The notes under the pieces: generated by a model
Seen by the model: the letters and a program-made list of their open reading frames with translations, nothing else
Told to the model about the DNA's origin: nothing
Database searches by the model: none
Part shown: in pieces, positions 19,515 to 33,551 of the stretch
How positions within the stretch are numbered: position 1 is the stretch's first letter
How the letters are laid out: every line of letters starts with the position of its first letter
Virus record (IMG/VR): IMGVR_UViG_3300032167_004205
Strand: one strand, 5' to 3'
Origin: an uncultured virus (IMG/VR IMGVR_UViG_3300032167_004205)
Taxonomy: Duplodnaviria > Heunggongvirae > Uroviricota > Caudoviricetes
Length of the DNA stretch: 64,000 nucleotides
Made by a program: the position numbers and the translations under genes

Positions 19515-20177
19515 ATGATAAAGAAAACATTATTGAACGCTAATCCAGACATTGCGGCTGAATGGCATCCCACCAAAAATGGCTCGCTTACTCCTGAGCG
19601 TGTAGCGCTTCGGAGCAATAAAAAAGTATGGTGGAAATGTAAAAAGGGGCACGAATGGGAAGCGTATATCTCCAATCGAACACGCTGGGATGGCTGCCCC
19701 TACTGTGTCGGACGGCTGCCGATTGTTGGAGAAACGGACCTATTGACCACGCATCCGCAACTGGCTGCTGAGTGGCATTCTACAAAGAATGGTTTTGGAC
19801 CAGATACCGTTTCGGCCGGAAGTCATAAAAAGGTGTGGTGGATCTGTTCGCGTGGCCATGAGTGGAACACTACTGTTAATAGCAGAACTGCAACCCCCCT
19901 TGGCTGCCCTTATTGTGCGAACAAGAAGCTCCTGAAAGGGTTCAATGACTTTGCCACACGGTATCCGGAAATTGCAAAAGAGTGGCACCCGACAAAAAAT
20001 GCCCCCCTCCTCCCCTCTGAGTTTATCCTTACCCAGGATAAGGCTTGGTGGATCTGTTCCTCTTGTGGTCACGAATGGCTTGCTTATATCAAAAACCGAG
20101 CAAAAGGGAGCGGCTGCCCCGCTTGTGCGAATAAACGAAAAGGCAGAAATACGCAGCTGATGGAGAAACGCAAATGA
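19515..20177 (+). CDS. Triple zinc-ribbon (DUF4379-like) protein
   Basis: Three repeats of P..A.EWHPTKN...KVWW.C..GHEW......R....GCPYC; no nuclease domain. Confidence 0.85.
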   Translation: MIKKTLLNANPDIAAEWHPTKNGSLTPERVALRSNKKVWWKCKKGHEWEAYISNRTRWDGCPYCVGRLPIVGETDLLTTHPQLAAEWHSTKNGFGPDTVSAGSHKKVWWICSRGHEWNTTVNSRTATPLGCPYCANKKLLKGFNDFATRYPEIAKEWHPTKNAPLLPSEFILTQDKAWWICSSCGHEWLAYIKNRAKGSGCPACANKRKGRNTQLMEKRK

Positions 20178-20794
20178 AAAATCTGACCGGACAACGATTC
20201 GGCCGGCTTATTGCCATTCGGCCAACCGAGGAAAGGCGACATGGGTCGGTTGTGTGGGAATGCACCTGTGATTGCGGAATCACTGCATTTATTGCGAGTG
20301 CAGAACTGCGCGACGGCAAAACAAAATCCTGTGGTTGCCTGAGAAAAGAGCTTGCAGCAAAACTTAGCACTCGGGCACATAAGGATTTTATAGGCCAGAG
20401 ATTTGGCCGGCTTACTGTGATCAGGGAAAGCGAAAGACGGCTGAACGATGCTTTGCTATGGGAATGTCTGTGTGATTGTGGAAATATCGCCTATGCAACA
20501 GGTTATCAGCTGAAAAGTGGGCGATCACGGTCTTGCGGATGTCTGCGTAAAGAATATATGGTGAAGCGCGGGCAGGCGCGAAAGATTGATCTGACAGGCA
20601 AACGGTTTGGACGCCTGATGGTTGTTCGTGAAATGGAAGAGCGACGAAAGAAAGCTGTCATGTGGGAATGCGTTTGCGATTGCGGGAACACAACAGTTGC
20701 CAGTAGCTACGCATTGAAAAGCGGAGGTAAAAGGTCTTGTGGGTGTCTCAGAAAAGAAAACACCAAGATGCTAAGTGCTATGCGCAGAAAGTAA
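20174..20794 (+). CDS. Protein of three DLTGQRFGRL/WECxCDCG/SCGC repeats
   Basis: Repeat domain usually seen N-terminal to HNH/AP2 domains; no catalytic domain here. Confidence 0.85.
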   Translation: MKNLTGQRFGRLIAIRPTEERRHGSVVWECTCDCGITAFIASAELRDGKTKSCGCLRKELAAKLSTRAHKDFIGQRFGRLTVIRESERRLNDALLWECLCDCGNIAYATGYQLKSGRSRSCGCLRKEYMVKRGQARKIDLTGKRFGRLMVVREMEERRKKAVMWECVCDCGNTTVASSYALKSGGKRSCGCLRKENTKMLSAMRRK

Positions 20795-21325: not shown

Positions 21326-21367
21326 AGTGCCTGAGTGCCTTGGAGAAATCCGGGGCACTCTTTTTTT
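21326..21367 (+). terminator. Leader terminator with tandem AGTGCC motif (site 1)
   Basis: AGTGCC-T-GAGTGCCTTGGA-GAAA-TCCGGGGCACTC-T7, ending 26 nt before the terminase ATG. Confidence 0.85.
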
Positions 21368-21393
21368 ATTGCCCTGAGCAGGAGGTTTTTTAC

Positions 21394-23043
21394 ATGACGG
21401 AGGACAGAGCCAATCTGATCGAGCGGCTATTCGCATCCGACACAAACGATGTAAAAATTGTTCGAGGCATTTTTGACTTGGCCCGAGCGGAAAATTCTAT
21501 GTCCATCGGACGCCGGGTGCGCAACCTGGCAGCGGAAAAGACCCGTACCCACCGGGGCAAACCCCAGCAAAAAGAGTTTATGGAATTGTATTGGGATATC
21601 ATGCTGTGGCTGGCGCCGAATGATTTTGACAGCTTCATGCTATACCTAGAGCGGAATCGTAAACCACAGGACAGGTTCTATCAGCCACGCCGCAAGCAGT
21701 TGAAACCCATTTGTGATTCCTTGCAGGCGTTGGTCGATGATGAAATAGATCAGTTGTTTTTGAGCTGCCCTCCCCGTATCGGCAAGAGCGCCATCGTCAA
21801 CTTTTTCTTTGCGTGGATTATGGGCCGAGACCCAGAGGTTTCGAACCTATACAGTTCATACAGTGCTTATGTAACCAAGACTTTTTACACCGGTGTTCTG
21901 GAGGTTTTGAATGACCCGGACACCTACTGTTTCAGTGAGATCTTCCCAAAAGCAAAACTGGCGTCCACTGATGCTCAGGACTTACGCTTGGATATGGGAA
22001 GAAAGAAAAAGTATCCTACTTTGACTTGCCGTTCCATAGACGGTGCGCTCAATGGCGGGGCCGATTGTCAAGGGATATTATGCGGGGATGACCTCGTAGA
22101 AGGGATCGAAGAGGCCGTTTCTCCTGACCGTCTGACAAAAAAATGGAGCACGGTACTGAACAACCTCCTTCCTCGTCAGGTCGGAGACCGCGGAAAAATC
22201 CTGTTTATAGGTACGCGCTGGAGCTTGGCAGACCCCATCGGGAAGCAAATCGACTTGCTGGAGAACAACCCAGACTATGCTAACGTGCGGTATACTGTCA
22301 TTAATATTCCCGCCCTGAATGAAAACGAGGAATCCAACTTCGATTATGAATATGGCAAGGGCATGAGCACCCAGCAATACAAGCAGCGCCGTGCGGCCAT
22401 GGAGGAAGCCGGCCAAATCGCAGACTGGGAAGCACAATACATGGGAAATCCCATAGAGCGTAACGGACAACTGTTCAATCCGGACATGATGCGCTTTTAT
22501 AACGGCACCTTGCCAGACGGGGAACCTGACCGGGTGTTTGCTTTTGTTGACCCGGCTTATGGCGGGGGCGATTATGTCAGCTCACCGATAGCCTATCAGT
22601 ATGGCTCCGATGTCTACATTCATGATGTTGTATACGATAACTCCGATAAGTTTGTCACCCGGCCGCTGCTGGTGTCCGCTTTCAAGCGAAATAGTGTCGG
22701 TTCTGCCATGTTTGAAGGCACTAAGACGGTTTCTGAGTACCGGGAATGGATTGATAATAAACTGCGAGAAGATGGATACCGGGTGAACATTCAGAGTAAG
22801 GCTGCCTCCACTCGCGTCCGGAAAGAAGAACGGATTTTTGAGCGGGCGCCGGAGATCCGCGAGTTCTATTTCCGCGATGCAGCTCACAGAAACTCGGAAT
22901 ATGCAGCGTTTATGCGGTGCCTACATGCCTTCACCATGACCGGGAAGAATAAATGGGACGATGCACCCGACTCATTGGCTGGACTATGTGACATGATTCA
23001 TCGGACGGCTCGAAAAGCAAAAATCATCGACCGACCTTTTTAA
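21394..23043 (+). CDS. terL: Terminase large subunit
   Basis: Walker A CPPRIGKS, Walker B GDDLVE, IGTRW, nuclease motifs VDPA.GG.D and DDAPDSL; GGAGG RBS before ATG 21394. Confidence 0.93.
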   Translation: MTEDRANLIERLFASDTNDVKIVRGIFDLARAENSMSIGRRVRNLAAEKTRTHRGKPQQKEFMELYWDIMLWLAPNDFDSFMLYLERNRKPQDRFYQPRRKQLKPICDSLQALVDDEIDQLFLSCPPRIGKSAIVNFFFAWIMGRDPEVSNLYSSYSAYVTKTFYTGVLEVLNDPDTYCFSEIFPKAKLASTDAQDLRLDMGRKKKYPTLTCRSIDGALNGGADCQGILCGDDLVEGIEEAVSPDRLTKKWSTVLNNLLPRQVGDRGKILFIGTRWSLADPIGKQIDLLENNPDYANVRYTVINIPALNENEESNFDYEYGKGMSTQQYKQRRAAMEEAGQIADWEAQYMGNPIERNGQLFNPDMMRFYNGTLPDGEPDRVFAFVDPAYGGGDYVSSPIAYQYGSDVYIHDVVYDNSDKFVTRPLLVSAFKRNSVGSAMFEGTKTVSEYREWIDNKLREDGYRVNIQSKAASTRVRKEERIFERAPEIREFYFRDAAHRNSEYAAFMRCLHAFTMTGKNKWDDAPDSLAGLCDMIHRTARKAKIIDRPF

Positions 23044-23395: not shown

Positions 23396-26300
23396 TTGCA
23401 GAAGTATGATATAAACATGGCGAAGCATTTTCAAGTGCGCCGCCGATGGAACAACATCTGGAAAAGAATCACGATGGCCCTGGCCTCCGTGGTGGTTTTC
23501 TGCACCGTTTACGCTTTGATCCTGCCCGCTATTACTATGGAACCCGAGTATATATGCGGCCAAGAATCTCATCTTCATACAGAGGCATGCTATCAGCTGC
23601 CCGAACTGACGACCCTATCCAGCCTGATCTGCACCTCTGACACTTTAGGAGTCCATAACCATACACCCGAATGTTACGACGAAAACGGCGAGCCCAAGTG
23701 CGGTATCGCCGACTTTGTGTTGCATACACATCATTCTGATTGCTTTGATGTAAACGGTGAATTGGTTTGTTCACTGCCTGAAATTAAAGCGCACATTCAC
23801 GACGAAGCCTGCTGGCAGCATCCTCATGTTCATGATGAACCCTGCTTCATCCAGCAGCATGGCGAGCTCCTTTGTACTCTGGAAGAGGGAAGTTTACATA
23901 CCCACCTGGATACCTGCTATATCCAGCAGCAAAACCTAATCTGCTCGCTCCCTGAAACAGAGTCTCATACCCATACCACGGAAGCCTGCTATACGGAAAC
24001 AAAGACTCTGCTCTGCAACCAGTCTGAGGTAGAAGCCCACACCCATTCTGACAACTGTTATACCATAGAAACTATTCAGATCTGCTCCCAAGAAGAAACT
24101 GAAGGTCATACTCATGGCGATGGTTGTTTTGCAGAGGATGGTTCCACAATCTGTGTCTTACCCGAGATTGCTAGTCATACCCATACGGACGCCTGTTTCC
24201 AGACCACTTCCAATTTCACCTGTACACTGACGGAGACTGCAGGGCACAGCCACAGCGATACCTGCTACTCCGAGCCGACCAGTACCCTTATCTGCACAAC
24301 TGAAGAAACCGACGGCCACACCCACAGCGACACTTGTTATGAAACTGTAAGTGTGGTTACTTGTGCCCTTGAAGAGAATATTCCTCACGCGCACACCGAC
24401 TCCTGTTTTGTTTGCACTCCCGTTCTGCAGTGCGCTCAGCCGACTGGAGAAGACGCTGTTTCTGTCCTGAACTGTGAAAAGAAAGAGCTGATCCTCCACA
24501 CCCACGAAAGTGCTTGCTTTGACCAGACTGGCGCCTGTGTTTGCGGTTTGCTGGAGATTTCTGAACATATTCATGACTATACCTGCTTTGTGATTACCCA
24601 AGCTCAAACCGCCGAACCTGTCCTTGTTTGTGACTATGAGGAGCATGAACACACCGAGGTTTGTATCGCTCAGAAAGAAACGGACAACATAATCACCAGC
24701 GACCAGCTCATTGCCGAAGGTTTTTATTGCGGCATTGCGAAACACATCCATAAACCCGAAAACGGCTGTTTCGTTGAGGATGGCATGCTCATGTGTACCA
24801 TGACCGAGCATGAGCACACCGAGTTGTGTAATCTGGACCCCGCCAAACGGGACCAGACCGACCCCGCCGATGACTGGACCTTCTGGCTGGAGTCCATGCC
24901 CGCGCCCACCGGTGTTGCAGCCGACGACCTACTGGAAGTGGCCCGCTTGCAGCTGGATTACAGACAGAGCGCCGACTATTACACCGTCACCGAAGAAGAG
25001 GAAATCCTCTATTACAACCGTTATGCTGGTTGGTGGGCGTCGTTATATGATGAAGTGCCTTATGGCGACTGGAACGCCAAGCTGATTGCCTTCTGTCTGT
25101 CGGCTGCCGACATTCCCTTCCCCCTGGCAGAAACCCCTTCCGACTGGCTTTGGGATCCTGAACTGGCTGATTACCTACTTGCTGAAGGCGAGCTCCCCTT
25201 CCCCGCCGACATAGTCTTTTTGGACAACAACCGGGTGGGCATTGTCACTGCAGTGGACGCTGAAAAGGGTAAGCTGGATGTCATCCTCGAATGGAACGGC
25301 AAAGTCCGTGAAAAGACCTTCGCCCTGGACAAAGACGTTTTGGCCTTGGCCCGCATTCCCGGCAACCAGCCTGAAGGATCTTTGGAACCTCTTCCCGGCG
25401 AGATCGTCCTGCCGGAACAGTTCGTGTATGAAGACGAATGGCTGACCATGGTGCTCACGGTGGAGGGCAACGCCGCTCTGCCCGAGGGCGCCGTCCTGTC
25501 GGAAGAGACGCTTCTGCCCGAGCCTGTTCTGACCGTTCAGATGCTGGATGACGAAAGCGATTTGTACTGGCAACTGATGGACGCCGCCCAGGAGCACGGC
25601 GAAGAGGGCGGCCTGCTGGGCCTCACCGCTATGGAGCTTCAGTTCTGGTACGGTGAGTATCTGCTGGACACCACCGCCTGCGCCATGACCGCCCAGATCA
25701 CCCTGAAAGAAACCCTGCTGGCTCCGCCGGTGCAGACCTATTCCCTGCGCGCGGCAGTCCCCACCCCCGCGCCTGAGGCCGAGACTGGTGTGGAAGTGGC
25801 GGTCATCCAGGCCGACGGCACGGCTATCACCGGTACGGATACTGCTTTCTTTGAGACCGGCGCGCCGTCTCCCACCATGACCTTCGCCGTGACCAATAAT
25901 GTGATTGCGGTAGCCACTTCCACGACCGCTAACCCTCACTTCACGGTGCAATATTACGCCAACATCCCTCGTGTTCAGTGGAGCGATACGGCTACTACGA
26001 GTGGCACCTTGCAGATTATTAATACAGAAGGTGGCAATTTGCCGAAAAACGGTCAGTCCATCCCCATGAAGTATTTGCGGCTGGACAACAACATGACGGT
26101 TCTGCGGCAAAACACATTGACTGAGGTTTATGCGGAGCACAACTATGAATATATTACTGCGCCCAACCTGATCTACTTCAACCGTTTATACGAAAATGCA
26201 AACTATTCGTTAAAAGAAGTCTGGATGCTGAAATCTGGTCGTTCTGCTGAAAGTATGAATCGCGAGGATTGGAATTTTTACAATCCAAACACGATCCACT

Positions 26301-27955
26301 TCACGAATCGTGATGAATCGGTATCCGACACGACCATTCTGATTGATGATGGTGCGATCATCCGACTGGTTTATGACACGACACAGACCGACTATCAAAA
26401 CAAGGTTAATTTCTACGATTACGATATTACCGACGGCAAGCTGTATACCACCGAAGCAAATGCACGGGCGCAGTCTTCTCCGGTTTCTTCAGCAGCTGCT
26501 GGCACGAAATATTTTATGAAGTCTGACAGTTTTGCCGGTGATGACCAGGAAGGTATCAACTCCCACACAAACTATGGATCTACCGGCATAAAGTTTGCCT
26601 TCGGTAACGCAAACACCCGAGTTAAATTATGCCTCAATAGCTGGAATGGTCAGACTCTCAACAAAGCCAATTCCAATAACGCAACTGCTTGCACCTACGG
26701 TATCGCCAGCACACTTACAAATGGGAAGATTCAATATGCCGACGGAATCGCGGTGCCAAAGCTATTTGACGATGGCGCGGCTCTCGGAAAAACCGAATTC
26801 CCGAATTGCACGTTGGAGTTTGGTCGTGTAGGCGATACGTATACGCTGAAAAAGGTATATGACAAATCGGGAACGGTCATCGACAGTGGGCTGGATACTT
26901 TTACTGAGCGAACTAATTGGAACAAAACTAAAATAATGTACGCCAACGACTTCTGGCCGTTGGATAAAGCTCACTCTTATACAAACAACTATGCCTCTGG
27001 CCATGATATGCTGTTTGGTGCAACAGAGAATCAATTAACTTTTGTTGGAGCTCCTTATGATCTTAGTGATAAACAGAAAAACGATGATGGTCTGGAAAAC
27101 AACCCCACGAGTGACGACGCTATCGATCACAACGCCTACTTCGGTATGCAGTACGCGGTCAACTTTGAACTGACCGAAGATTATATTGGCCCTCTGGAAT
27201 ACCTGTTCTTCGGTGACGATGATATGTGGGTGTTCCTGACCCATCCGAACGGTAAATGCGAGTTGATTTGCGACATCGGCGGCGTCCACTCCTCCGTGGG
27301 TGAATACGTCAACCTGTGGGACTATATCGACGATGACGCATCCGGCACCCATACCCTGAGCTTCTACTACACTGAGCGCGGAGCTTCCGGTTCTTCCTGC
27401 TATATGCAGTTTACCTTACCCTCGGTTTCCTCTGCCACCCCTGAGCAGAGCACCGGACACCTTCGAGTCGAAAAAGAAGTAGCTGGTGCAGTAGTCGATC
27501 AGGAAAAGGAGTACCACTTCGATATCAAATTTACCGATGCTGCGGGCAACCGTCTGCTGGATGAGTATTCTTACACTCGCTATGCCAAAGATGGAAGAGT
27601 CATCAAAACCGACATTATTCTGTACGATGGAGGCAGTTTTGAACTGCGGGGTGGAGAATACATCATTGTTCGCTACCTGCCAAATGGTGCAAAATACGAA
27701 ATTACAGAAGCGAACCCAGACAACAGCTTTATAACGACTGTAAACGGAGTGGAAACTGCAACTGTATCCGGAACCATCGAAAAGATGAATACAGAAGTTG
27801 TAAGGTATACCAACACCTTCTACTATGAGCTGCCGGAGACCGGTGGCGGAGGTGCGGCAAACTACTGGATCTGTGGAGGCCTGCTGGCGATTATGCCCTG
27901 TTTGTGGCTGCTGCGCCGGCAGCGATACAGAGGAAGGAGGGTTACCGGTGGCTGA
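23396..27955 (+). CDS. LPxTG-anchored pilus-associated adhesin with His/Cys repeats, degenerate CHAP-like and fibro-slime domains
   Basis: About 18 C-x(4-8)-HxH-x(3-5)-C repeats; FFGDDDMWVF...DIGGVH...FYYTERG; LPETG plus TM segment and basic tail. Confidence 0.85.
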   Translation: MQKYDINMAKHFQVRRRWNNIWKRITMALASVVVFCTVYALILPAITMEPEYICGQESHLHTEACYQLPELTTLSSLICTSDTLGVHNHTPECYDENGEPKCGIADFVLHTHHSDCFDVNGELVCSLPEIKAHIHDEACWQHPHVHDEPCFIQQHGELLCTLEEGSLHTHLDTCYIQQQNLICSLPETESHTHTTEACYTETKTLLCNQSEVEAHTHSDNCYTIETIQICSQEETEGHTHGDGCFAEDGSTICVLPEIASHTHTDACFQTTSNFTCTLTETAGHSHSDTCYSEPTSTLICTTEETDGHTHSDTCYETVSVVTCALEENIPHAHTDSCFVCTPVLQCAQPTGEDAVSVLNCEKKELILHTHESACFDQTGACVCGLLEISEHIHDYTCFVITQAQTAEPVLVCDYEEHEHTEVCIAQKETDNIITSDQLIAEGFYCGIAKHIHKPENGCFVEDGMLMCTMTEHEHTELCNLDPAKRDQTDPADDWTFWLESMPAPTGVAADDLLEVARLQLDYRQSADYYTVTEEEEILYYNRYAGWWASLYDEVPYGDWNAKLIAFCLSAADIPFPLAETPSDWLWDPELADYLLAEGELPFPADIVFLDNNRVGIVTAVDAEKGKLDVILEWNGKVREKTFALDKDVLALARIPGNQPEGSLEPLPGEIVLPEQFVYEDEWLTMVLTVEGNAALPEGAVLSEETLLPEPVLTVQMLDDESDLYWQLMDAAQEHGEEGGLLGLTAMELQFWYGEYLLDTTACAMTAQITLKETLLAPPVQTYSLRAAVPTPAPEAETGVEVAVIQADGTAITGTDTAFFETGAPSPTMTFAVTNNVIAVATSTTANPHFTVQYYANIPRVQWSDTATTSGTLQIINTEGGNLPKNGQSIPMKYLRLDNNMTVLRQNTLTEVYAEHNYEYITAPNLIYFNRLYENANYSLKEVWMLKSGRSAESMNREDWNFYNPNTIHFTNRDESVSDTTILIDDGAIIRLVYDTTQTDYQNKVNFYDYDITDGKLYTTEANARAQSSPVSSAAAGTKYFMKSDSFAGDDQEGINSHTNYGSTGIKFAFGNANTRVKLCLNSWNGQTLNKANSNNATACTYGIASTLTNGKIQYADGIAVPKLFDDGAALGKTEFPNCTLEFGRVGDTYTLKKVYDKSGTVIDSGLDTFTERTNWNKTKIMYANDFWPLDKAHSYTNNYASGHDMLFGATENQLTFVGAPYDLSDKQKNDDGLENNPTSDDAIDHNAYFGMQYAVNFELTEDYIGPLEYLFFGDDDMWVFLTHPNGKCELICDIGGVHSSVGEYVNLWDYIDDDASGTHTLSFYYTERGASGSSCYMQFTLPSVSSATPEQSTGHLRVEKEVAGAVVDQEKEYHFDIKFTDAAGNRLLDEYSYTRYAKDGRVIKTDIILYDGGSFELRGGEYIIVRYLPNGAKYEITEANPDNSFITTVNGVETATVSGTIEKMNTEVVRYTNTFYYELPETGGGGAANYWICGGLLAIMPCLWLLRRQRYRGRRVTGG

Positions 27956-28028
27956 GAAACGGCCCCTTTTCCAAACTTTTCCGCAAAAATTATTTTGTTA
28001 TAGAGAAAGAAGAAAGGAAGAAAATCGA

Positions 28029-29462
28029 ATGAAAAAGTTTTTAGCGATCTTGATGACCCTGGTTCTCATGCTCTCCCTGGCCGTGCCGGCAATGGCTGTG
28101 GGCGATGGTAAAATTACCATTGACAATGCTGTTAAAGACCAGACTTACACTATTTATAAGATTTTTGATTTGGAAAGCTTTAGCGGCGAAAACTATGCCT
28201 ATAAAATTGCAAATACCAGCCCGTGGTATGCTTTTGTCACTGGCACTGGTGCAGGTGCTGATTATGTGACCATTGACGCCCAAGGATATGTAACTTGGAC
28301 TGCTAAAGAAGATGATGCAACTGCTGCAGCCTTTGCCAAAGCTGCTCAGGCTTACGCCAAGACAAAGAGCATTTCTAATCAGGGTGAAAAAATTGCTGTA
28401 AATGCTACTGTTGAGTTTACCGGCCTTGATTTAGGTTATTATCTGGTAGACACTACCTTGGGTACTCTGTGCTCTCTGAATACCACAGATAAAGAGGTCA
28501 CCATCAAAGAAAAGAACGTAGCTCCCGTCATTACCAAGAAAGTTGAGGAAGATTCCAACAACTTTTGGGGCGAGACTAACGATGCCGACATCAATCAGGT
28601 TGTCAACTTTAAGGCCACTATCACCGTTCAGAAGGGTGCCGAAAACTACATCCTGCACGATACCATGTCTACTGGCCTGACCTATAATGGTGTTACGTCC
28701 GTTAAGAGCGGTAATACTGCTGTGACTGCTGCGAACTACCAAGTGATTGATAATCCTACCGATAGTTGCACTTTTGAAGTCAAATTTGACAATGCATATA
28801 TTACTTCTTTGCCTGCTGGCACGGAGATTGTGGTTGAATACTCTGCCACTCTGAATGAGAACGCTGTTGTTGGTCTGGACGGAAACACCAATAAAGTCAA
28901 ATTGCAATATGGTGACGAGAATAAGCCCTCCTATACTCCCGAGGATACTACCGTTACCTACACTTGGGATGCAAAAGTTGTGAAGTACACCCAAAATGGT
29001 GCCACTGAAGTCATGCTGGCAGATGCTACTTTCAAACTGAGCACCGACAATGCAGCCACTACTGTTCTCAAGCTCCATAATCTGGGCGACAATAAGTATG
29101 AAGTCTGTGCTAAGGGCGATTGCGGCGAGAATCATGTGACTGAAATCACCACTGATGCCACCGGTATTTTCAATATTGAGGGCTTGGATTCTGGTACTTA
29201 CTATTTGACCGAAACTGCTGCTCCCGCTGGTTATAACAAACTGGCCAATCCTGTGACCATTGAGATTACGGGTGCTACTACCGGTGATGATGATAAGTTG
29301 ATTTACAGCACCGTTGAAACTAAGGTTCTGAACCAGTCCGGCACCGAGCTCCCCGAAACCGGCGGTATGGGCACCACCATCTTCTACATCGTGGGCGGCG
29401 TCATGGTCGTGGCCGCTGTGGTCCTGCTGATCACCAAGAAGCGTATGGGCACCGAGGGTTAA
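28029..29462 (+). CDS. Backbone pilin (SpaH/EbpC-like)
   Basis: Signal peptide from ATG 28029; E-box YYLTETAAPAGY; LPETGG sorting signal. Confidence 0.92.
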   Translation: MKKFLAILMTLVLMLSLAVPAMAVGDGKITIDNAVKDQTYTIYKIFDLESFSGENYAYKIANTSPWYAFVTGTGAGADYVTIDAQGYVTWTAKEDDATAAAFAKAAQAYAKTKSISNQGEKIAVNATVEFTGLDLGYYLVDTTLGTLCSLNTTDKEVTIKEKNVAPVITKKVEEDSNNFWGETNDADINQVVNFKATITVQKGAENYILHDTMSTGLTYNGVTSVKSGNTAVTAANYQVIDNPTDSCTFEVKFDNAYITSLPAGTEIVVEYSATLNENAVVGLDGNTNKVKLQYGDENKPSYTPEDTTVTYTWDAKVVKYTQNGATEVMLADATFKLSTDNAATTVLKLHNLGDNKYEVCAKGDCGENHVTEITTDATGIFNIEGLDSGTYYLTETAAPAGYNKLANPVTIEITGATTGDDDKLIYSTVETKVLNQSGTELPETGGMGTTIFYIVGGVMVVAAVVLLITKKRMGTEG

Positions 29463-29542
29463 ACTACATAGCTGATTTCATCACATAAACACCCAAACCG
29501 GGGAGGGGAAACCCTCCCCGGTTACAGTATCAAGGAGAGTCC

Positions 29543-30367
29543 ATGAAGAAGCATCTTTCTACCATCATTTTAATACTTATCTTCCTTATTGGCCTGTCCT
29601 TGGTGCTATACCCCACGGTGGCAGACTACTGGAACTCTCTCCACCAGTCACGAGCCATCGCCACCTACGCCGAAGAAGTCGCCAACATCGACACTGACAA
29701 ATATACCGAAGTTTGGCAGACAGCGGTAGAATACAATCGGAGCCTGCGGAACCGAGACAACATCTTTATCCTGTCTGACGAACAAAAAGTACAGTATGAT
29801 GAGCTTTTGAATGTGGGCGGCAACGGTGTTATGGGTTATATTGAGATCCCCAGCATCGGCGTCTCCCTTCCGGTCTATCATGGTACCGACGAGGCGGTTT
29901 TGCAGATCGCCATCGGCCATCTGGAGTGGACAAGCCTGCCGGTGGGCGGCGAAAGCACCCATTGCGTGGTCTCCGGCCACACCGGTCTACCCTCAGCTAA
30001 GCTGTTTACCAACCTGAATCAGCTGGAAAAGGGGGATACCTTCCTGTTTCGCATTCTGGACGAGACCCTTACTTATGAGGTAGACCAGATTTTGATCGTC
30101 CTACCCCAGGAAACCGACGCGCTGCACATCGAAGAGGACAAGGATCTTTGCACACTGGTGACCTGCACGCCCTACGGCGTTAACAGCCACCGGCTTTTGG
30201 TGCGGGGACACCGGGTAGAGAACGCCGAGATCGCAAAGACCATCCGTGTCACAGCCGACGCCATGCAGATTGAGCCGCTGATCGTGGCACCGCTGGTGGC
30301 AGTACCCATGCTGCTGGTGTTGCTGATCATGGTCATGTTCGGCGGTAGAAAGAAGGGAGGAAGGTGA
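29543..30367 (+). CDS. srtC: Class C sortase
   Basis: SGHTGLP, TLVTCTPYGVNSHRLLVRG; N- and C-terminal TM segments. Confidence 0.95.
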   Translation: MKKHLSTIILILIFLIGLSLVLYPTVADYWNSLHQSRAIATYAEEVANIDTDKYTEVWQTAVEYNRSLRNRDNIFILSDEQKVQYDELLNVGGNGVMGYIEIPSIGVSLPVYHGTDEAVLQIAIGHLEWTSLPVGGESTHCVVSGHTGLPSAKLFTNLNQLEKGDTFLFRILDETLTYEVDQILIVLPQETDALHIEEDKDLCTLVTCTPYGVNSHRLLVRGHRVENAEIAKTIRVTADAMQIEPLIVAPLVAVPMLLVLLIMVMFGGRKKGGR

Positions 30368-30368
30368 A

Positions 30369-31223
30369 GTGATGGGCAATCAAAAGACCAACTACCCCAA
30401 AATTACCGTTGGCTACCGTGTGGGCAAACTAATGGTGGCCGAACCTACGGACAACCGAAAAAACGGCTATATGATCTGGCGCTGTTCCTGTAACTGTGGG
30501 GGAGAAATTCTGTTGGATACCCGCACCCTTCAGCGCGGAACGATTTCCGATTGTGGCTGCGCTACGAGGGTTTCTCCCGGACAAAAAGACCTCACCGGTA
30601 TGCGCTTTGGGCATCTTGTATGTCTGGAACCTACGAATCAGCGCAGCAAAGGTGGCAGTACAATCTGGCAGTGCAAATGTGACTGCGGCAGCGAATGTTT
30701 CGCCGCCAGCAAACAGTTGACGCGGGGATATAAAAAAAGCTGTGGTTGCCTGAGCCATCCTCCCTTGAAAGACTATGTTGGGAAACGATTTGGTCAGCTG
30801 ACCGTCGTAAACTATTATGGCAAACTGGAAGGTGCCCACCGTTGGGCGTGCAAATGCGACTGCGGCAACACGACAATCGTCCACCAGACACTGCTGCAAT
30901 CCGGCAAAACCAAAAGCTGCGGCTGCCTGCAGGCCAACATTATCAAGGACAACATGAAGTTCGTGGATGGAACGTCCGTAACGATGTTGGAGAATGCTGA
31001 AAAACGGCTGATCTGCTCCAACTCCAGCGGTCATAATGGTGTTTATTTGAACAAAAAAACAAAAAAATGGGTCGCGCAAATCACGTTTAAAGGGAAGACC
31101 TATTACCTTGGCACCTTTGCGAAAATCGAAGACGCCGTCACTGCCCGGAAGAAGGCAGAAGAGCGCATGTATGGCGAGTTTTTGGCGTGGTATCACGAAG
31201 AATACACCTCCCAAAATCCATAA
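30369..31223 (+). CDS. Three CxCDCG/SCGC repeats fused to an AP2 domain
   Basis: Repeats followed by N.SGHNGV.......KWVAQI.......YLG.F...EDA..AR..AE; no HNH motif. Confidence 0.85.
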   Translation: MMGNQKTNYPKITVGYRVGKLMVAEPTDNRKNGYMIWRCSCNCGGEILLDTRTLQRGTISDCGCATRVSPGQKDLTGMRFGHLVCLEPTNQRSKGGSTIWQCKCDCGSECFAASKQLTRGYKKSCGCLSHPPLKDYVGKRFGQLTVVNYYGKLEGAHRWACKCDCGNTTIVHQTLLQSGKTKSCGCLQANIIKDNMKFVDGTSVTMLENAEKRLICSNSSGHNGVYLNKKTKKWVAQITFKGKTYYLGTFAKIEDAVTARKKAEERMYGEFLAWYHEEYTSQNP

Positions 31224-31276
31224 GGTTCCGGTAAGTCCGCGGGCCGTGGTCCAATTGCCATCTCAGAGAAAGAGCA

Positions 31277-31322
31277 AAAATCCCGCAAACCCTTGAAACA
31301 ACAGGGGTTGCGGGATTTTTTT
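31277..31322. terminator. Bidirectional terminator closing the pilus block
   Basis: AAAAATCCCGCAAACCCT...AGGGGTTGCGGGATTTTTT. Confidence 0.8.
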
Positions 31323-31499
31323 GTGTTTTTGTGCGGTTATAATCCCAGGGCAAGGCCGTCCCGGTGGGGGTCGGCGGCAAATGTAGTTTTGAAGCATTGC
31401 CGCTGCTTCTTTGTATTGGATGTAAAAGGCAACCTCCCTACCGTACAATTGCTATGAGCGTTTGCGATAAAACTTGACTGAAAGTTCCGTTAAATCATA

Positions 31500-31528
31500 T
31501 TGACAGTATGAAATAAGCTCGGTAAAAT
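31500..31528 (+). promoter_or_regulatory. SigA-type promoter upstream of the head operon
   Basis: TTGACA-17-TAAAAT; the -35 is overlapped by the near-palindrome TCATATTG-A-CAGTATGA. Confidence 0.75.
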
Positions 31529-31666
31529 TTAAGTAGGTACTTTTTCCTACACAGTACTCAGATGGCTCCCTGCAGAGCGGTAAAGCCCACTTCCTCCCCC
31601 CTCCCCTTTTCCGTGTCGGTTGACAATGATGGTGGAAGTACGGCACTCCTTTTTTATTTGCAAAGC

Positions 31667-31840
31667 GGGGATTCACTGGGGAAGACAGTTTTGCAGTTTC
31701 CAGACCTTCTCCCCCCTCAAATTGGTCAAGCGAAACGCCGGCATACAGGCAAAGCCGCAAACCTGTATATGCCGCTGAATGCGGCACCCTGGGAACTGCA
31801 TATTTGGGCAAAGTGGGTTCAACTCCCGCAATTCCCATCA
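31667..31840 (+). ncRNA. tRNA-like structured RNA with a large insert
   Basis: Acceptor-like GGGGATT/AATTCCC+A; T-arm GTGGG-TTCAACT-CCCGC; D-like ACTG-GGGAAGA-CAGT; 12-bp stem 31692-31703/31789-31800. Confidence 0.6.
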
Positions 31841-31860
31841 AATCAAACTAAAACAGGTCG

Positions 31861-32046
31861 GTGAATGTATTTTTGCCAAACGACATCGTAAAGGTTTTCT
31901 GCCCCGCTTGCAGCACATGGCTGTGTATGGTCGGAACAGAAACTACCGGCCGGATCGCTCCCTATTGCAAGCGATGTAAAAAGAATATCATTATTAAACT
32001 AAGTGCCGAGTGCCAGTCATCTTGTACGCAGAACGCAAGTGTATGA
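31861..32046 (+). CDS. Mu Com-like zinc-finger protein
   Basis: 61 aa, VFCPACSTWL...YCKRCKKNIII; CxxC...CxxC layout and size resemble Com. Confidence 0.7.
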   Translation: MNVFLPNDIVKVFCPACSTWLCMVGTETTGRIAPYCKRCKKNIIIKLSAECQSSCTQNASV

Positions 32047-32070
32047 GTTGACTGGCACTTTTTTGTTTTT
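32002..32070 (+). terminator. Leader terminator with tandem AGTGCC motif (site 2)
   Basis: AGTGCC-G-AGTGCCAGTCA...TGACTGGCACT-TTTTTGTTTTT directly before the portal RBS. Confidence 0.85.
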
Positions 32071-32084
32071 GGAGGTGTTTTTTA

Positions 32085-33551
32085 TTGCTAGGCAGACGAA
32101 AAATATTCTGCGATGCTGACACAATCCATACCGGCAATATTGAAGAGATCATCGCAGAAGCCTTACGCATTCATCACCAGAATGCCAGAGAAATCAAATA
32201 CCTCCGTCGTTACCTTGCCGGCGATCAGCCAATTTTGCACCGGACAAAGAAGACCCGTGAGGATATCACCAACAAAGTCGTTGTAAACACCGCCAGTGAG
32301 GTCATGGACTTCAAATTATCCTATATCTTTGGCTCACCTATCGACATCGTCCGCTCTGCCAACTCAGACACGACTGTTGACATCACACCATTTCAGCAAA
32401 TGATGGATGAGCAAGGCAAAGACGACGTTGATCAGACAATCGCGCTGGATATGCTCACTTGCGCCTTGGGTTATCGCGGTATATTGCCTAACCCAAACGA
32501 TGGGGACCTCTCCCCTTTTTGTATTGTGGACATGGCTCCGGAAACTACCTTTTGCGTCTATCAAAACGACGTGTTCAAACGAAAAGTCCTTGGTGTGTCT
32601 TACCTGAAAAAGCTGGATGGCTCCATGTACCTGACAGCCTATTCTGACACCACCCGTTTTGAACTTGCTTCGGTATCTCCAGGCGATACTCTGAAATTGA
32701 TCGGGGTCTCTCCCAACGGCATTGGTGCGATCCCCATTGTGGAATACGCCATGCCCGAGCTTATGGGGGCATTTGAAAAAGCCATCCCTTTAATGGATGC
32801 ATTAAATACCTCCGCTTCCAATCGTGTGGATGATTTGGAGCAGTTTGTTCAGAGCATTTTATGGATCTCCGGCGTTGATTTAGACGAACATGCTCAGGCA
32901 CAGCTGAAGGAATCCCTATGTCTCCTTACACCAAATGTCCAGGATGGAGTTCAGCCGCAGGTTAAATTCCTTGTAAACAACCTGGACCAGGCGGGCATTC
33001 AGGGCATGGTGGACGACCAGTACTATCACATTTTAGAGGTGTGCTCCGTCCCCGGCCGTGAGCAAAGCAGCGGTGGAAACACCGGCGCCGCTACCGAACT
33101 GGGGGCCGGCGGCTGGCGCAAAGCGCAATACAGCGCCGACCGCATCATTTCCGCTTGGAAAAAGGGTGACCGTGAAATGTACCGTGTGGCCCTGGCCATC
33201 CTTGAAAAAAGCTCCAAAACCCCGGCTTCCTTAGCCGGTCTGAAGGTCACAGACCTTCAAACTAAGTTCACTTTGAGCAAGTCCAATGACCTTCTTACCA
33301 AAACACAGGGTATGTTAAACCTGATGCAGGCAGGTGTCTCCCCTCGCATCGCCTATCGTGAGGTGGGTGTGTTCTCTGACCCTGAACAGGTTTATGAAGA
33401 GAGCAAGAACACCGCCGACAAAGCTATGGAGAAGATGCACGGCACCGAGGATAAGTCCCTGGGCGCTGTGGATGTGACTAATCAGCCCCAGACGGCAGAC
33501 AGTTTGGAACGGAATGTTACCGGCAAGGGCAACATCCAGAAGCAGGACTAA
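32085..33551 (+). CDS. Portal protein (SPP1 gp6-like)
   Basis: NKVVVN.A....DFK.SY.FGSPI, NGIGAIPIVEY and D.LN...SNR.DD.EQFVQS motifs; GGAGGTG RBS and TTG start. Confidence 0.9.
   Translation: MLGRRKIFCDADTIHTGNIEEIIAEALRIHHQNAREIKYLRRYLAGDQPILHRTKKTREDITNKVVVNTASEVMDFKLSYIFGSPIDIVRSANSDTTVDITPFQQMMDEQGKDDVDQTIALDMLTCALGYRGILPNPNDGDLSPFCIVDMAPETTFCVYQNDVFKRKVLGVSYLKKLDGSMYLTAYSDTTRFELASVSPGDTLKLIGVSPNGIGAIPIVEYAMPELMGAFEKAIPLMDALNTSASNRVDDLEQFVQSILWISGVDLDEHAQAQLKESLCLLTPNVQDGVQPQVKFLVNNLDQAGIQGMVDDQYYHILEVCSVPGREQSSGGNTGAATELGAGGWRKAQYSADRIISAWKKGDREMYRVALAILEKSSKTPASLAGLKVTDLQTKFTLSKSNDLLTKTQGMLNLMQAGVSPRIAYREVGVFSDPEQVYEESKNTADKAMEKMHGTEDKSLGAVDVTNQPQTADSLERNVTGKGNIQKQD

What the first reader, a model, noticed from the sequence alone, without database searches (positions are those of the whole stretch)
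31667..31840. tRNA-shaped 171-nt RNA with a large structured insert upstream of the Com-like gene
Seen: GGGGATT (31667-73) pairs with AATTCCC (31830-36, one G-U), followed by A-TCA. There is a canonical T-arm GTGGG-TTCAACT-CCCGC and a D-like ACTG-GGGAAGA-CAGT hairpin. In place of the anticodon arm is a 12-bp stem (TGCAGTTTCCAG/CTGGGAACTGCA) enclosing ~85 nt of further hairpins (GCG-AAA-CGC; CGGCATACAGG/CCTGTATATGCCG). The topology resembles the tmRNA tRNA-like domain, but it is about half tmRNA length and has G-U at pair 4 rather than pair 3. Inference: a tRNA mimic acting as an RNase P/Z processing signal for the late transcript, a decoy against tRNA-targeting defences, or a reduced tmRNA.
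Basis: partly seen in the sequence, partly recalled or inferred. Interest (0 to 1): 0.78.

Follow-up and report, generated by a model that had tools for sequence, protein, structure and literature searches.

The report
tRNA-shaped RNA from a phage tRNA array
A gut-bacterium prophage carries a 171-base stretch that folds like a transfer RNA with a long branched arm in place of the anticodon arm; it sits where related phages keep real tRNA genes, so it is most likely a remodelled tRNA gene that can no longer read codons, and its job is unproven.

Summary
Positions 31667-31837 (+) fold into a 7-bp acceptor stem, a D-like hairpin, a 12-bp stem enclosing 85 nt, a 12-nt linker and a canonical T arm. 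Shuffled upstream sequence reproduced this layout in 14 of 20,000 trials.

It is not a catalogued RNA. ARAGORN and Rfam found nothing at their normal thresholds.

Context explains much of it. The element lies in a short unit of conserved promoter, structured RNA, small zinc-ribbon ORF and terminator-like hairpin, just before the portal gene. The nearest relatives (TerL 81%, portal 61% identical) have four tRNA genes and one armless tRNA-like element in the same slot. The window's T arm and 3' acceptor strand match their last tRNA. Its two inner hairpins match that tRNA's 5' leader, with three compensatory pair changes. The 5' strands have no counterpart in the relatives.

Best reading (0.45): a tRNA-derived, non-decoding, tRNA-shaped RNA cut out by RNase P and RNase Z. 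Main rival (0.30): a functionless relic of the array.

The tmRNA and intron-bearing tRNA-Gly readings fail their defining tests. There is no covariation for the tRNA-defining helices and no RNA data. Comparable phage RNAs are known (T4 RNAC/RNAD, Lak-phage oversized tRNAs), so interest is moderate.

The parts
31500..31528 (+). Sigma-70-type promoter, TTGACA-17-TAAAAT. It is conserved in the relatives, where it drives a tRNA array.
   Evidence: 11 of 12 consensus matches; window 31481-31537 matches L009 1139-1195 at 75% over 57 nt, E 4e-9; the same hexamers in L009 at 1158-1186.
31667..31673 (+). Acceptor-stem 5' strand, GGGGAUU. It has no counterpart in the relatives.
   Evidence: the 5' part against L009 is not significant (281 of 300 shuffles score as well).
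31675..31689 (+). D-like hairpin ACUG-GGGAAGA-CAGU. The loop carries GG. Only one linker nucleotide (C31674) follows the acceptor.
   Evidence: variant X9 has 31684 G>A, in the loop; it is not a reverse-complement copy of the T arm (832 of 2000 shuffles score as well).
31692..31703 (+). 5' strand of the 12-bp stem that stands where an anticodon arm would be.
   Evidence: repeat I4; p 0.93-0.94 in all three contexts tested.
31703..31727 (+). Short GACC/GGUC hairpin with a 17-nt C/U-rich loop. The loop repeats a leader motif found at 31589-31603.
   Evidence: (p 0.53). (direct repeat D2, 87%).
31730..31738 (+). GCG-AAA-CGC mini-hairpin.
   Evidence: p 0.66.
31743..31768 (+). Hairpin H1: 7 bp with a 12-nt loop. 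It is conserved in relatives, with 2 compensatory pair changes and 1 broken pair; 8 of 12 loop bases are identical.
   Evidence: covariance-model alignment to L009 2091-2135, E 3.3e-4. (1 of 300 shuffles). (z -3.1).
31770..31786 (+). Hairpin H2: 6 bp with a 5-nt loop, one nucleotide after H1. It is conserved in relatives, with 1 compensatory change.
   Evidence: (p 0.92).
31789..31800 (+). 3' strand of the 12-bp stem. It overlaps GGGAACU, which aligns with the 5' acceptor strand of the relatives' last tRNA.
   Evidence: (alignment A4). X17 has 31789 C>T, which turns G-C into G-U.
31801..31812 (+). 12-nt unpaired linker, UAUUUGGGCAAA, in the variable-region position.
   Evidence: X17 has 31812 A>T, at an unpaired base.
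31813..31829 (+). Canonical T arm, GUGGG-UUCAACU-CCCGC.
   Evidence: local tmRNA-model match, 12.3 bits. (p 0.87-1.00).
31830..31840 (+). Acceptor 3' strand AAUUCCC, discriminator A31837, then UCA. No CCA is encoded.
   Evidence: the best local match is the T arm and acceptor of the L009 tRNA at 2139-2216 (12 of 300 shuffles score as well).
31873..32046 (+). Small zinc-ribbon ORF (57 aa from the TTG start). Its orthologue follows the tRNA array in relatives.
   Evidence: (35% identity, E 4e-8). (no Com family match).
32008..32070 (+). 21-bp hairpin followed by a U run: a terminator-like site between the zinc-ribbon ORF and the portal ribosome-binding site.
   Evidence: z -5.16; the L009 equivalent has z -4.61. 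(L009 site 2449-2465 plus CTTTTTGTTA).
32085..33551 (+). Portal protein gene (SPP1 Gp6-like).
   Evidence: PF05133, E 2e-55. (phrog_64).

Best explanation
The element is a tRNA-derived, non-decoding, tRNA-shaped RNA. It sits in the slot where the nearest relatives keep a tRNA array, inside a short promoter-to-terminator unit just before the portal gene.

Shown:
- The slot, the promoter, the zinc-ribbon ORF and the terminator-like hairpin are conserved between the two phage types.
- The relatives have four tRNAs plus one armless tRNA-like element there. The window has no canonical tRNA at all.
- The window's T arm and 3' acceptor strand correspond to the relatives' last tRNA.
- Hairpins H1 and H2 correspond to that tRNA's 5' leader.
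- The acceptor 5' strand, the D-like hairpin and the 5' strand of the 12-bp stem are specific to the window type. Together they rebuild a cloverleaf-like four-way junction around the old leader hairpins.

Inferred mechanism:
1. The RNA is transcribed from the promoter at 31500-31528.
2. It folds from the inside out: H1 and H2 first, then the 12-bp stem, then the T arm, then the acceptor.
3. Its 12-bp acceptor/T-arm stack and its D-loop GG / T-loop corner make it a substrate for RNase P, cutting between 31666 and 31667.
4. Because no CCA is encoded, RNase Z cuts after A31837, followed by CCA addition.
5. This releases a stable RNA of about 171-174 nt and frees the downstream zinc-ribbon mRNA.

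It cannot read codons, because the would-be anticodon nucleotides are buried in the 12-bp helix. What the released RNA does afterwards is unknown. Candidates are a scaffold for H1-H2 and the C-rich loop, a decoy, or a regulator.
For: Shape and non-randomness:
- reproduce the fold.
- unique in the window and 0 hits in 862 kb of other loci.
- 14 of 20,000 shuffles.
- All 28 core pairs are standard, with 3 G-U.
- The D-like hairpin is not just a mirror copy of the T arm.

Context:
- ARAGORN finds Asn, Met, Gly and an odd tRNA immediately upstream of the zinc-ribbon ORF and portal in L009, L010 and L011. Rfam's tRNA model scores them 51-71 bits in L009, the one of the three scanned.
- The promoter is conserved.
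- The terminator-like hairpin is conserved.
- TerL is 81% identical up to its stop codon.

Homology of parts:
- H1-H2: E 3.3e-4, with 3 compensatory pair changes, and 1 of 300 shuffles.
- 3' part: best match is the last tRNA, 12 of 300 shuffles (alignment).

Natural variants: within the element, 2 substitutions fall at unpaired bases and 1 turns G-C into G-U.

Non-coding:
- The +C after 31602 in X17 would frameshift both overlapping long ORFs.
- Those ORFs match no family.

A second CCA-less, armless tRNA-like element (L009 1811-1879, z -3.2) shows that such derivatives live in this array.

RNase P, RNase Z and CCA-enzyme substrate rules are established knowledge, recalled and not tested here.
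Against: - There is no covariation for the tRNA-defining helices. All five window-type sequences are identical, and the relatives lack the 5' strands.
- Three structure-neutral SNPs are expected by chance roughly one time in five (my estimate).
- Total folding energy is only z = -1.97.
- With flanks attached, the acceptor is not predicted. The same is true for 2 of 4 real tRNAs.
- Conserved tRNA core features are missing: a single C instead of U8-N9, no normal anticodon loop, and a 12-nt unstructured variable region.
- No tRNA-model match at E up to 10.
- No expression or processing data exist.
- SNP density inside the element is no lower than in its flanks.
Confidence: 0.45

Rival explanations
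1. Functionless relic. The window-type phage lost its tRNA array. What remains is the 3' half of the last tRNA plus its leader hairpins. The upstream complementary strands are a by-product of rearrangement, so the cloverleaf look has no role. Only the promoter, H1-H2 and the terminator would be under selection.
For: - The window has 0 tRNAs where relatives have 4.
- The old 5' half of the tRNA is degenerate and its anticodon arm is deleted.
- There is no covariation for the acceptor, D-like hairpin or long stem.
- Folding z is only -1.97.
- SNP density is similar to the flanks.
- The region between TerL and portal is a rearrangement hot spot: an 8.4-kb insertion in the window, and the X17 contig diverges upstream of 31476.
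Against: - A relic should carry mismatches. Here 28 of 28 core pairs are intact.
- The full layout arises in only 14 of 20,000 shuffles.
- The D-like hairpin is correctly placed and is not explained by an inverted duplication.
- The two phage types are old enough (portal 61%, zinc ribbon 35% identical) for an unselected structure to have decayed.
Confidence: 0.3
2. Cis-acting leader RNA. The structured RNA between the strong promoter and the terminator-like hairpin controls read-through into the portal, head and tail genes. H1-H2 and the closing 12-bp stem would be the active part. This would be processive antitermination or attenuation of the kind known for HK022 put, EAR or Tn916 canT. The tRNA-like shape would be incidental, or would serve only for later clean-up.
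For: - The promoter, structured RNA, small ORF, strong hairpin with U run, then portal ribosome-binding site layout is conserved in both phage types.
- H1-H2 is the only leader piece conserved with compensatory changes, and its loop is 8 of 12 identical.
- RNA-only processive antiterminators exist in phages and Gram-positive mobile elements (passages of PMC11658703 read).
- That put consists of two hairpins one nucleotide apart is recalled, not checked.
Against: - There is no sequence or model match to any known antiterminator RNA.
- In relatives, H1-H2 lies between tRNAs that would be cut away from the polymerase by processing.
- Terminator function is not shown.
- This reading does not explain the acceptor and D-like hairpin.
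Confidence: 0.15
3. Intron-containing tRNA-Gly(UCC). After removal of a 92-nt insert the RNA would be a 79-nt tRNA with the anticodon loop UUUCCAA.
For: - ARAGORN with introns allowed and its threshold lowered to 80% draws exactly this.
- Relatives carry a tRNA-Gly(UCC) in the array.
- Lak megaphages were reported to carry tRNAs with 'enigmatic introns', including a Gly(TCC) (passages of bioRxiv 10.1101/356790).
Against: - Nothing is called at the default threshold. At the same relaxed threshold, 2 junk tRNAs are called in the same 601 nt.
- 92 nt is too short for a group I core, and no intron family matches.
- The 12-bp helix has no bulge-helix-bulge.
- A73 and G2-C71 contradict bacterial Gly identity (U73, C2-G71; recalled).
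- The variable region is 12 nt.
- The 5' half has no similarity to the relatives' tRNA-Gly.
Confidence: 0.04
4. Minimal tmRNA or tmRNA-like ribosome-rescue RNA.
For: - The topology matches: a tRNA-like domain whose long helix leads to a structured domain.
- The T arm resembles the tmRNA consensus.
- ARAGORN at a 70% threshold calls it a tmRNA.
Against: - The G-U is pair 4, not pair 3, so the alanine identity element is absent.
- Rfam gives 12.3 bits against a gathering score of 47, for the T arm only.
- The tag is 'not identified' and does not end like known tags.
- The proposed tag frame lies inside H1 and H2, which are conserved as hairpins upstream of a normal tRNA in relatives.
Confidence: 0.02
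5. Decoy or sponge for a host factor that recognises the upper half of a tRNA, such as a tRNA-targeting defence nuclease, a nucleotidyltransferase toxin, or a modification or CCA enzyme.
For: - An intact acceptor/T-arm top half without a decoding function.
- Phage tRNAs are known to counter tRNA-cleaving defences (abstract of PMC11464382 seen in the listing).
Against: - There is no anticodon loop to offer anticodon nucleases.
- No defence or counter-defence gene is linked to it in the window.
- No data bear on it.
Confidence: 0.05

Closest known systems
Phage T4 stable RNAs RNAC and RNAD (species 1 and 2 RNAs)
   Same: They are small non-decoding RNAs made by a phage alongside its tRNAs, with function still unknown. 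A passage of PMC9697503 read calls them 'RNAs of yet unknown functions' and late RNAs. That they lie in the T4 tRNA cluster and are matured with the tRNAs is recalled, not checked here.
   Different: No T4 sequence was at hand, so no sequence comparison was possible. T4 is a large lytic myovirus of E. coli, whereas this is a roughly 58-kb temperate siphovirus-type prophage of a gut Firmicute. Here the RNA is the only tRNA-like gene left, and it lies in the leader of a zinc-ribbon/portal unit.
Oversized 'tRNAs with enigmatic introns' of Lak megaphages (Devoto et al., bioRxiv 10.1101/356790; passages read)
   Same: These are gut-phage tRNA-shaped genes with a large insert at the anticodon region, identical across samples, of unknown processing. 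One is a Gly(TCC), which is what relaxed ARAGORN calls this element.
   Different: The Lak genes are recognised as tRNAs once the insert is removed. Here the 5' half lacks tRNA core features, and the insert contains hairpins that relatives keep outside the tRNA. The phage type and host are different. No sequences were compared.
tmRNA tRNA-like domain
   Same: Acceptor stem, T arm, and a long helix in place of the anticodon arm that leads to a structured domain.
   Different: There is no G3-U70, no recognisable tag frame or pseudoknots, it is half the length, it has a real D-like stem, and it scores far below the Rfam gathering score.
tRNA-like processing signals in mRNAs (t-elements; RNase P-processed phage RNAs such as the P1/P7 C4 precursor). 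Recalled, not checked.
   Same: A tRNA-like fold embedded in a longer transcript, which would be cut by tRNA-processing enzymes and so define the ends of neighbouring RNAs.
   Different: Processing was not tested here. There is no sequence relation.
Bacterial Y-RNA-like YrlA
   Same: A non-decoding RNA with a tRNA-like module and a long helix, often phage-borne (recalled).
   Different: In YrlA the RNA ends lie in the long helix and the acceptor is capped (recalled). Here the ends are at the acceptor. There is no YrlA match in the window.

Membership tests
Canonical tRNA (Rfam RF00005 / ARAGORN) | Scores above the detector thresholds | tested here: not met
   ARAGORN at default settings finds 0 genes in 64 kb. 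Rfam at gathering scores finds 0. No RF00005 match at E up to 10 in 31400-32100.
Canonical tRNA (Rfam RF00005 / ARAGORN) | 7-bp acceptor stem stacked on a 5-bp T stem, with a UUCRANY T loop | tested here: met
Canonical tRNA (Rfam RF00005 / ARAGORN) | 5-bp anticodon stem with a 7-nt loop (U33, three free anticodon bases) | tested here: not met
   The helix runs on for 12 bp and opens into a branched 85-nt domain.
Canonical tRNA (Rfam RF00005 / ARAGORN) | U8-N9 linker and a D arm with the conserved core bases | tested here: not met
   There is a single C between the acceptor and the D-like stem. The loop GGGAAGA has GG but not the usual A14/A21 pattern (the rule is recalled).
tmRNA (RF00023) | G3-U70 alanine identity pair | tested here: not met
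   G-U is the fourth pair, G31670-U31833.
tmRNA (RF00023) | Resume codon and tag reading frame ending in a stop, flanked by pseudoknots | tested here: not met
   It is found only at 70% of ARAGORN's threshold, with the tag AKPQTCICR* marked 'not identified'. That stretch is H1-H2, which is conserved as hairpins upstream of a normal tRNA in relatives.
tmRNA (RF00023) | Model score at or above the gathering score | tested here: not met
   12.3 bits against 47, covering the T arm only.
Intron-containing tRNA (group I or bulge-helix-bulge) | A recognisable intron core or splice motif | tested here: not met
   No intron family matches. The insert is 92 nt. The 12-bp helix is perfect, with no bulges.
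Phage tRNA-cluster non-decoding tRNA-shaped RNAs (T4 RNAC/RNAD-like; an informal kind with no model) | Lies in a phage tRNA gene cluster | tested here: met
   Met by synteny. The same slot in L009, L010 and L011 holds 4 tRNAs and 1 tRNA-like element. The window itself has no other tRNA.
Phage tRNA-cluster non-decoding tRNA-shaped RNAs (T4 RNAC/RNAD-like; an informal kind with no model) | Acceptor and T arm kept, decoding arm replaced | tested here: met
Phage tRNA-cluster non-decoding tRNA-shaped RNAs (T4 RNAC/RNAD-like; an informal kind with no model) | Accumulates as a discrete processed RNA | not testable with these tools
   No RNA run is listed for this DNA.
Processive antiterminator RNA (put / EAR / canT kind) | Promoter-proximal structured RNA that lets RNA polymerase read through downstream terminators | not testable with these tools
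   The layout is compatible. There is no model or assay for it.
YrlA (RF02553) | RNA ends in the long Ro-binding helix, acceptor capped; model match | tested here: not met
   No match in the window. The ends here are at the acceptor.

The most novel reading that the evidence does not exclude
The element is a living example of how phages turn a tRNA gene into a tRNA-scaffolded RNA. The top half of a tRNA has been re-closed around its own former leader hairpins. RNase P and RNase Z would then release a stable, CCA-tailed, non-decoding RNA that displays a conserved two-hairpin module and a C-rich loop. That RNA would act in trans, as a regulator, a polymerase- or protein-binding RNA, or a decoy, in a temperate gut Firmicute phage. 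If so, it links the orphan 'anticodon-less tRNA-shaped RNAs' seen in many phages to a traceable origin and to a testable cargo.
Probability: 0.3. Interest if true: 0.6.

Novelty: new variant of a known kind. Interest (0 to 1): 0.4.

Why it matters
Phages repeatedly carry tRNA-shaped RNAs that cannot decode, such as T4 RNAC/RNAD and the oversized tRNAs of megaphages, and none has an assigned function.

This case is small and tractable. It is a roughly 58-kb prophage with one such RNA, a strong promoter and a clear neighbour gene.

Unusually, its ancestry can be read. Relatives still have the intact tRNA array, so one can see which parts were kept (T arm, 3' strand, leader hairpins) and which were newly recruited (the 5' strands).

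If the RNA is processed and stable, it gives a model for how tRNA scaffolds are re-used to present other RNA modules. If it is not, it shows that cloverleaf-like shapes can persist as relics. That would be a useful caution for other such calls.

Tried and rejected
**Searches for more homologues**
- blastn (distant mode) of the RNA against 50,697 phage records: no match.
- Exact T-arm/acceptor pattern in IMG/VR: 4 contigs, all identical to the window.
- H1-H2 pattern and promoter pattern in IMG/VR: the same 7 contigs each time, 4 window-type and 3 L009-type.
- Linker plus T-arm pattern: those 7 plus 2 ordinary tRNA-Glu genes.
- Portal-guided loci: 79 viral, 80 metagenome and 1 genome locus.
- The covariance model R1 found nothing beyond L009-L011 in 75 and then 81 of these loci.
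- Portal search in a class-level sample of 399 scored genomes: 2 distant matches at E up to 1e-60.
- Phage records: 71 portal matches, all below 60% identity.

**Expression**
- No RNA holder is listed for this DNA.

**Ideas rejected**
- Remnant of tRNA-Asn in the leader: the local alignment is not significant (67 of 300 shuffles).
- Origin of the 5' part by inverted duplication of the 3' part: the arms resemble each other only through the two stems. The middle is not similar (832 of 2000 shuffles).
- A target for the C-rich loop elsewhere in the window: none within 3 mismatches.
- Protein-coding reading of the two long overlapping ORFs: no family match, and an indel variant would frameshift them.

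**Literature and earlier notes**
- Supplementary tables of PMC10690425 were searched for six of the seven UViG ids: 0 occurrences. Three files could not be searched.
- Literature searches turned up no description of this element. That is not proof that none exists.
- Earlier-scan look-ups by place and by sequence: nothing.
Full report
**What is there.** The window is a Firmicute-type siphovirus prophage.
- Large terminase (TerL) is at 21340-23043.
- The portal gene is at 32085-33551, followed by head, tail and tape-measure genes.
- Between TerL and portal lie a pilin/sortase island (23396-30367) and an AP2-HNH endonuclease gene (30369-31223).
- A 640-nt gap follows, and it holds the finding.

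The free fold of 31667-31840 gives the same picture at -58.8 kcal/mol:
- a 7-bp acceptor stem, with G-U as pair 4;
- a single C;
- a 4-bp D-like hairpin with a GGGAAGA loop;
- two U;
- a 12-bp helix enclosing 85 nt;
- a 12-nt linker;
- a canonical T arm;
- the 3' acceptor strand, then A, then UCA.

Inside the 12-bp helix are four small hairpins. Its inner 7 bp (H1) are favoured. Its outer 4 bp have probability 0.03, because they compete with a second hairpin, H2, GCCGC-UGAAU-GCGGC.

**Is it more than chance?**
- A simple descriptor (acceptor, D hairpin, stem of at least 8 bp, T arm) finds this site once in the window. It finds nothing in 862,230 nt of other fetched phage loci, which contain 72 T-arm-like motifs and 22 acceptor+D candidates that I took to be tRNAs without checking them one by one.
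- With the T arm and 3' strand fixed and the 278 nt upstream shuffled, the full layout came up in 14 of 20,000 shuffles.

Against this:
- The total folding energy is unremarkable (z -1.97; 9 of 200 shuffles fold as well).
- When leader and trailer are attached, the G-rich 5' strand is predicted to pair elsewhere and the acceptor has p = 0.00.
- I ran the same test on the real tRNAs of a relative inside their 1.2-kb transcript. Two of four also failed, with acceptor p of 0.02 and 0.27. So that test does not discriminate.

**Not a catalogued RNA.**
- ARAGORN at default settings finds no tRNA or tmRNA in the whole window.
- Rfam at gathering scores finds nothing.
- At E up to 10, the only relevant matches in 31400-32100 are the 17-nt T arm to the tmRNA model (12.3 bits against a gathering score of 47) and a weak Tymo_tRNA-like match (18.3 against 40). 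There is no tRNA-model match.
- With thresholds lowered, ARAGORN draws the element as tRNA-Gly(UCC) with a 92-nt intron (80% threshold). It also draws it as a tmRNA with the tag AKPQTCICR*, 'not identified' (70% threshold). At the 80% setting it also calls two obviously poor tRNAs in the same 601 nt.

**Context found with relatives.** Four IMG/VR contigs carry the element. They are identical to the window over 6.4 kb, so they give no covariation.

The nearest different phages are L009, L010 and L011. They are identical to each other here. Their TerL is 81% identical to the window's right up to its last residue, and their portal is 61% identical.

In these phages, 26 nt after the TerL stop, sits the same promoter as in the window. 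It is TTGACA-17-TAAAAT, and the surrounding 57 nt are 75% identical (E 4e-9). After it come, in order:
1. tRNA-Asn, tRNA-Met, an armless tRNA-like element (1811-1879), tRNA-Gly(UCC), and an odd tRNA with an 8-nt anticodon loop;
2. the orthologue of the small zinc-ribbon ORF (35% identical);
3. a strong hairpin with a U run;
4. the portal gene.

The window has the same promoter, zinc-ribbon ORF and terminator-like hairpin (32008-32070, z -5.16). It has only the 171-nt element where the array should be. It also has 8.4 kb of pilin, sortase and HNH genes inserted between TerL and the promoter. A variant contig (X17) departs from the window just upstream of the promoter, at 31476. So the conserved module is promoter, RNA, zinc-ribbon ORF and portal.

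**Which parts are old and which are new.**
- A covariance model built from the window element hits L009 at 2091-2135 (24.3 bits, E 3.3e-4). That is H1-H2, lying directly upstream of the odd tRNA. Three pairs are changed on both sides, one pair is broken, and 8 of 12 H1 loop bases are identical.
- Local alignment against shuffles confirms H1-H2 (1 of 300).
- The same test places the element's 3' part best on the T arm and acceptor of that odd tRNA (12 of 300, marginal).
- The element's 5' part (281 of 300) and the leader (67 of 300) have no significant counterpart.

In the pairwise alignment, the 3' strand of the 12-bp helix overlies the old 5' acceptor strand. The old D arm is degenerate and the anticodon arm is deleted.

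So the element is a tRNA 3' half plus its former leader hairpins, re-closed by three new 5' features:
- a new acceptor strand;
- a D-like hairpin;
- the 5' strand of the long helix.

I tested whether the 5' part is just an inverted copy of the 3' part. The two resemble each other only through the two stems. The D-like hairpin is not a mirror of the T arm (832 of 2000 shuffles).

**Natural variation.** Contigs of four public DNA runs were laid on 31400-32100.
- Within the element, X9 has 31684 G>A, in the D-like loop.
- X17 has 31789 C>T, which turns the junction-closing G-C into G-U.
- X17 also has 31812 A>T, in the linker.
- X12 is identical over 31588-31818, and X10 does not cover the element.

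All three changes are structure-neutral. With about half the bases paired, this is expected by chance roughly one time in five (my estimate). SNP density is no lower than in the flanks. An extra C after 31602 in X17 would frameshift both long ORFs that overlap the region, and those ORFs match no family. This argues against a coding reading. The contig depth is only about 5.

**Mechanism.** The best-supported reading is a non-decoding, tRNA-derived, tRNA-shaped RNA. Transcription from the conserved promoter is inferred. In relatives the same transcript must be cut by RNase P and by 3' processing enzymes to release four tRNAs.

The window element keeps what those enzymes need:
- the 12-bp acceptor/T-arm stack;
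- the T loop;
- a GG-bearing D-like loop.

It lacks an encoded CCA, which in Firmicutes directs RNase Z cleavage after the discriminator, followed by CCA addition (established knowledge, recalled). The expected products are a stable RNA of 171-174 nt and a zinc-ribbon mRNA starting at 31838. The would-be anticodon nucleotides are buried in the 12-bp helix, so decoding is excluded.

What the released RNA does is open. H1-H2 is conserved in two contexts, so it is the best candidate for a functional cargo.

**Rivals.**
- A functionless relic of the lost array. No helix that defines the tRNA shape has covariation support. This is offset by 28 of 28 intact core pairs in a lineage whose zinc-ribbon protein has drifted to 35% identity.
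- A cis-acting leader controlling read-through of the terminator-like hairpin into the late genes. RNA-only processive antiterminators are known in phages and Gram-positive elements (passages of PMC11658703). This fits the layout but not the acceptor and D-like hairpin.
- The intron-bearing tRNA-Gly and minimal tmRNA readings. Both fail their defining features.

**Comparison with what is known.** The kind is not new.
[quoted passage not shown] That they lie in the tRNA cluster is recalled.
- Lak megaphages carry oversized tRNAs with 'enigmatic introns', including a Gly(TCC) (passages of bioRxiv 10.1101/356790).
- A large screen reported tRNA-like candidates in IMG/VR phages (passages of PMC10690425). 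Six of the seven contig ids were not found in the supplementary files that could be searched.
- Earlier notes of this scan describe similar anticodon-less tRNA-shaped RNAs in other phages. I treat these as leads only.

What is particular here:
- the small temperate phage;
- the position in a promoter-to-terminator unit before the portal gene;
- the readable origin from a tRNA array.

**Verdict.** This is a new variant of a known but unexplained kind of phage RNA. Function is unproven and interest is moderate.

Noticed in passing
L009 2139-2216 (identical in L010 and L011): The last tRNA of the relatives' array has an 8-nt anticodon loop. ARAGORN reports 'tRNA-???' with the four-base anticodon aata. 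It scores 52.2 bits on the Rfam tRNA model and has an encoded CCA. It could be a quadruplet-reading or otherwise unusual tRNA.
   Followed up: partly
L009 1811-1879: An armless tRNA-like element sits between tRNA-Met and tRNA-Gly. It has a 7-bp acceptor, one 9-bp interrupted hairpin with an AAAA loop, a 10-nt linker, a T arm, and A-CUA in place of CCA. It scores 25.4 bits on the Rfam tRNA model (gathering score 29) and folds at z -3.2. It is the best match of the window-element model among the array members (23.4 bits).
   Followed up: partly
window 23396-30367: A Gram-positive pilus island lies inside the prophage, between TerL and the portal unit. It comprises a 1519-aa protein with DUF7601, a 545-aa backbone pilin with an LPXTG anchor, and a sortase. 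It is absent from relative L010, where the promoter follows TerL by 26 nt.
   Followed up: partly
window 32008-32070; L009 2432-2475: A strong hairpin plus U run sits between the zinc-ribbon ORF and the portal ribosome-binding site in both phage types. If this promoter drives the portal and late genes, they would need terminator read-through.
   Followed up: partly
window 31589-31603 and 31704-31718: A C-rich 15-nt direct repeat (87% identical). One copy is in the leader and the other is the apical loop inside the element. No complementary target was found in the window within 3 mismatches.
   Followed up: partly
window 31476: A variant contig (run X17) matches the window from 31476 onward and is unrelated upstream. 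This is a recombination boundary just 5' of the promoter.
   Followed up: no
window 19515-20794 and 30369-31223: There are three endonuclease-type genes around the packaging module. One is a DUF4379 zinc-finger protein. Two are paralogous phrog_374 HNH endonucleases, and the second has an AP2 domain and sits right upstream of the RNA unit.
   Followed up: no
window 31276-31320: An 18-nt inverted repeat (94% complementary), flanked by A and T runs, follows the HNH gene. It looks like a bidirectional terminator that insulates the RNA unit from upstream genes.
   Followed up: no
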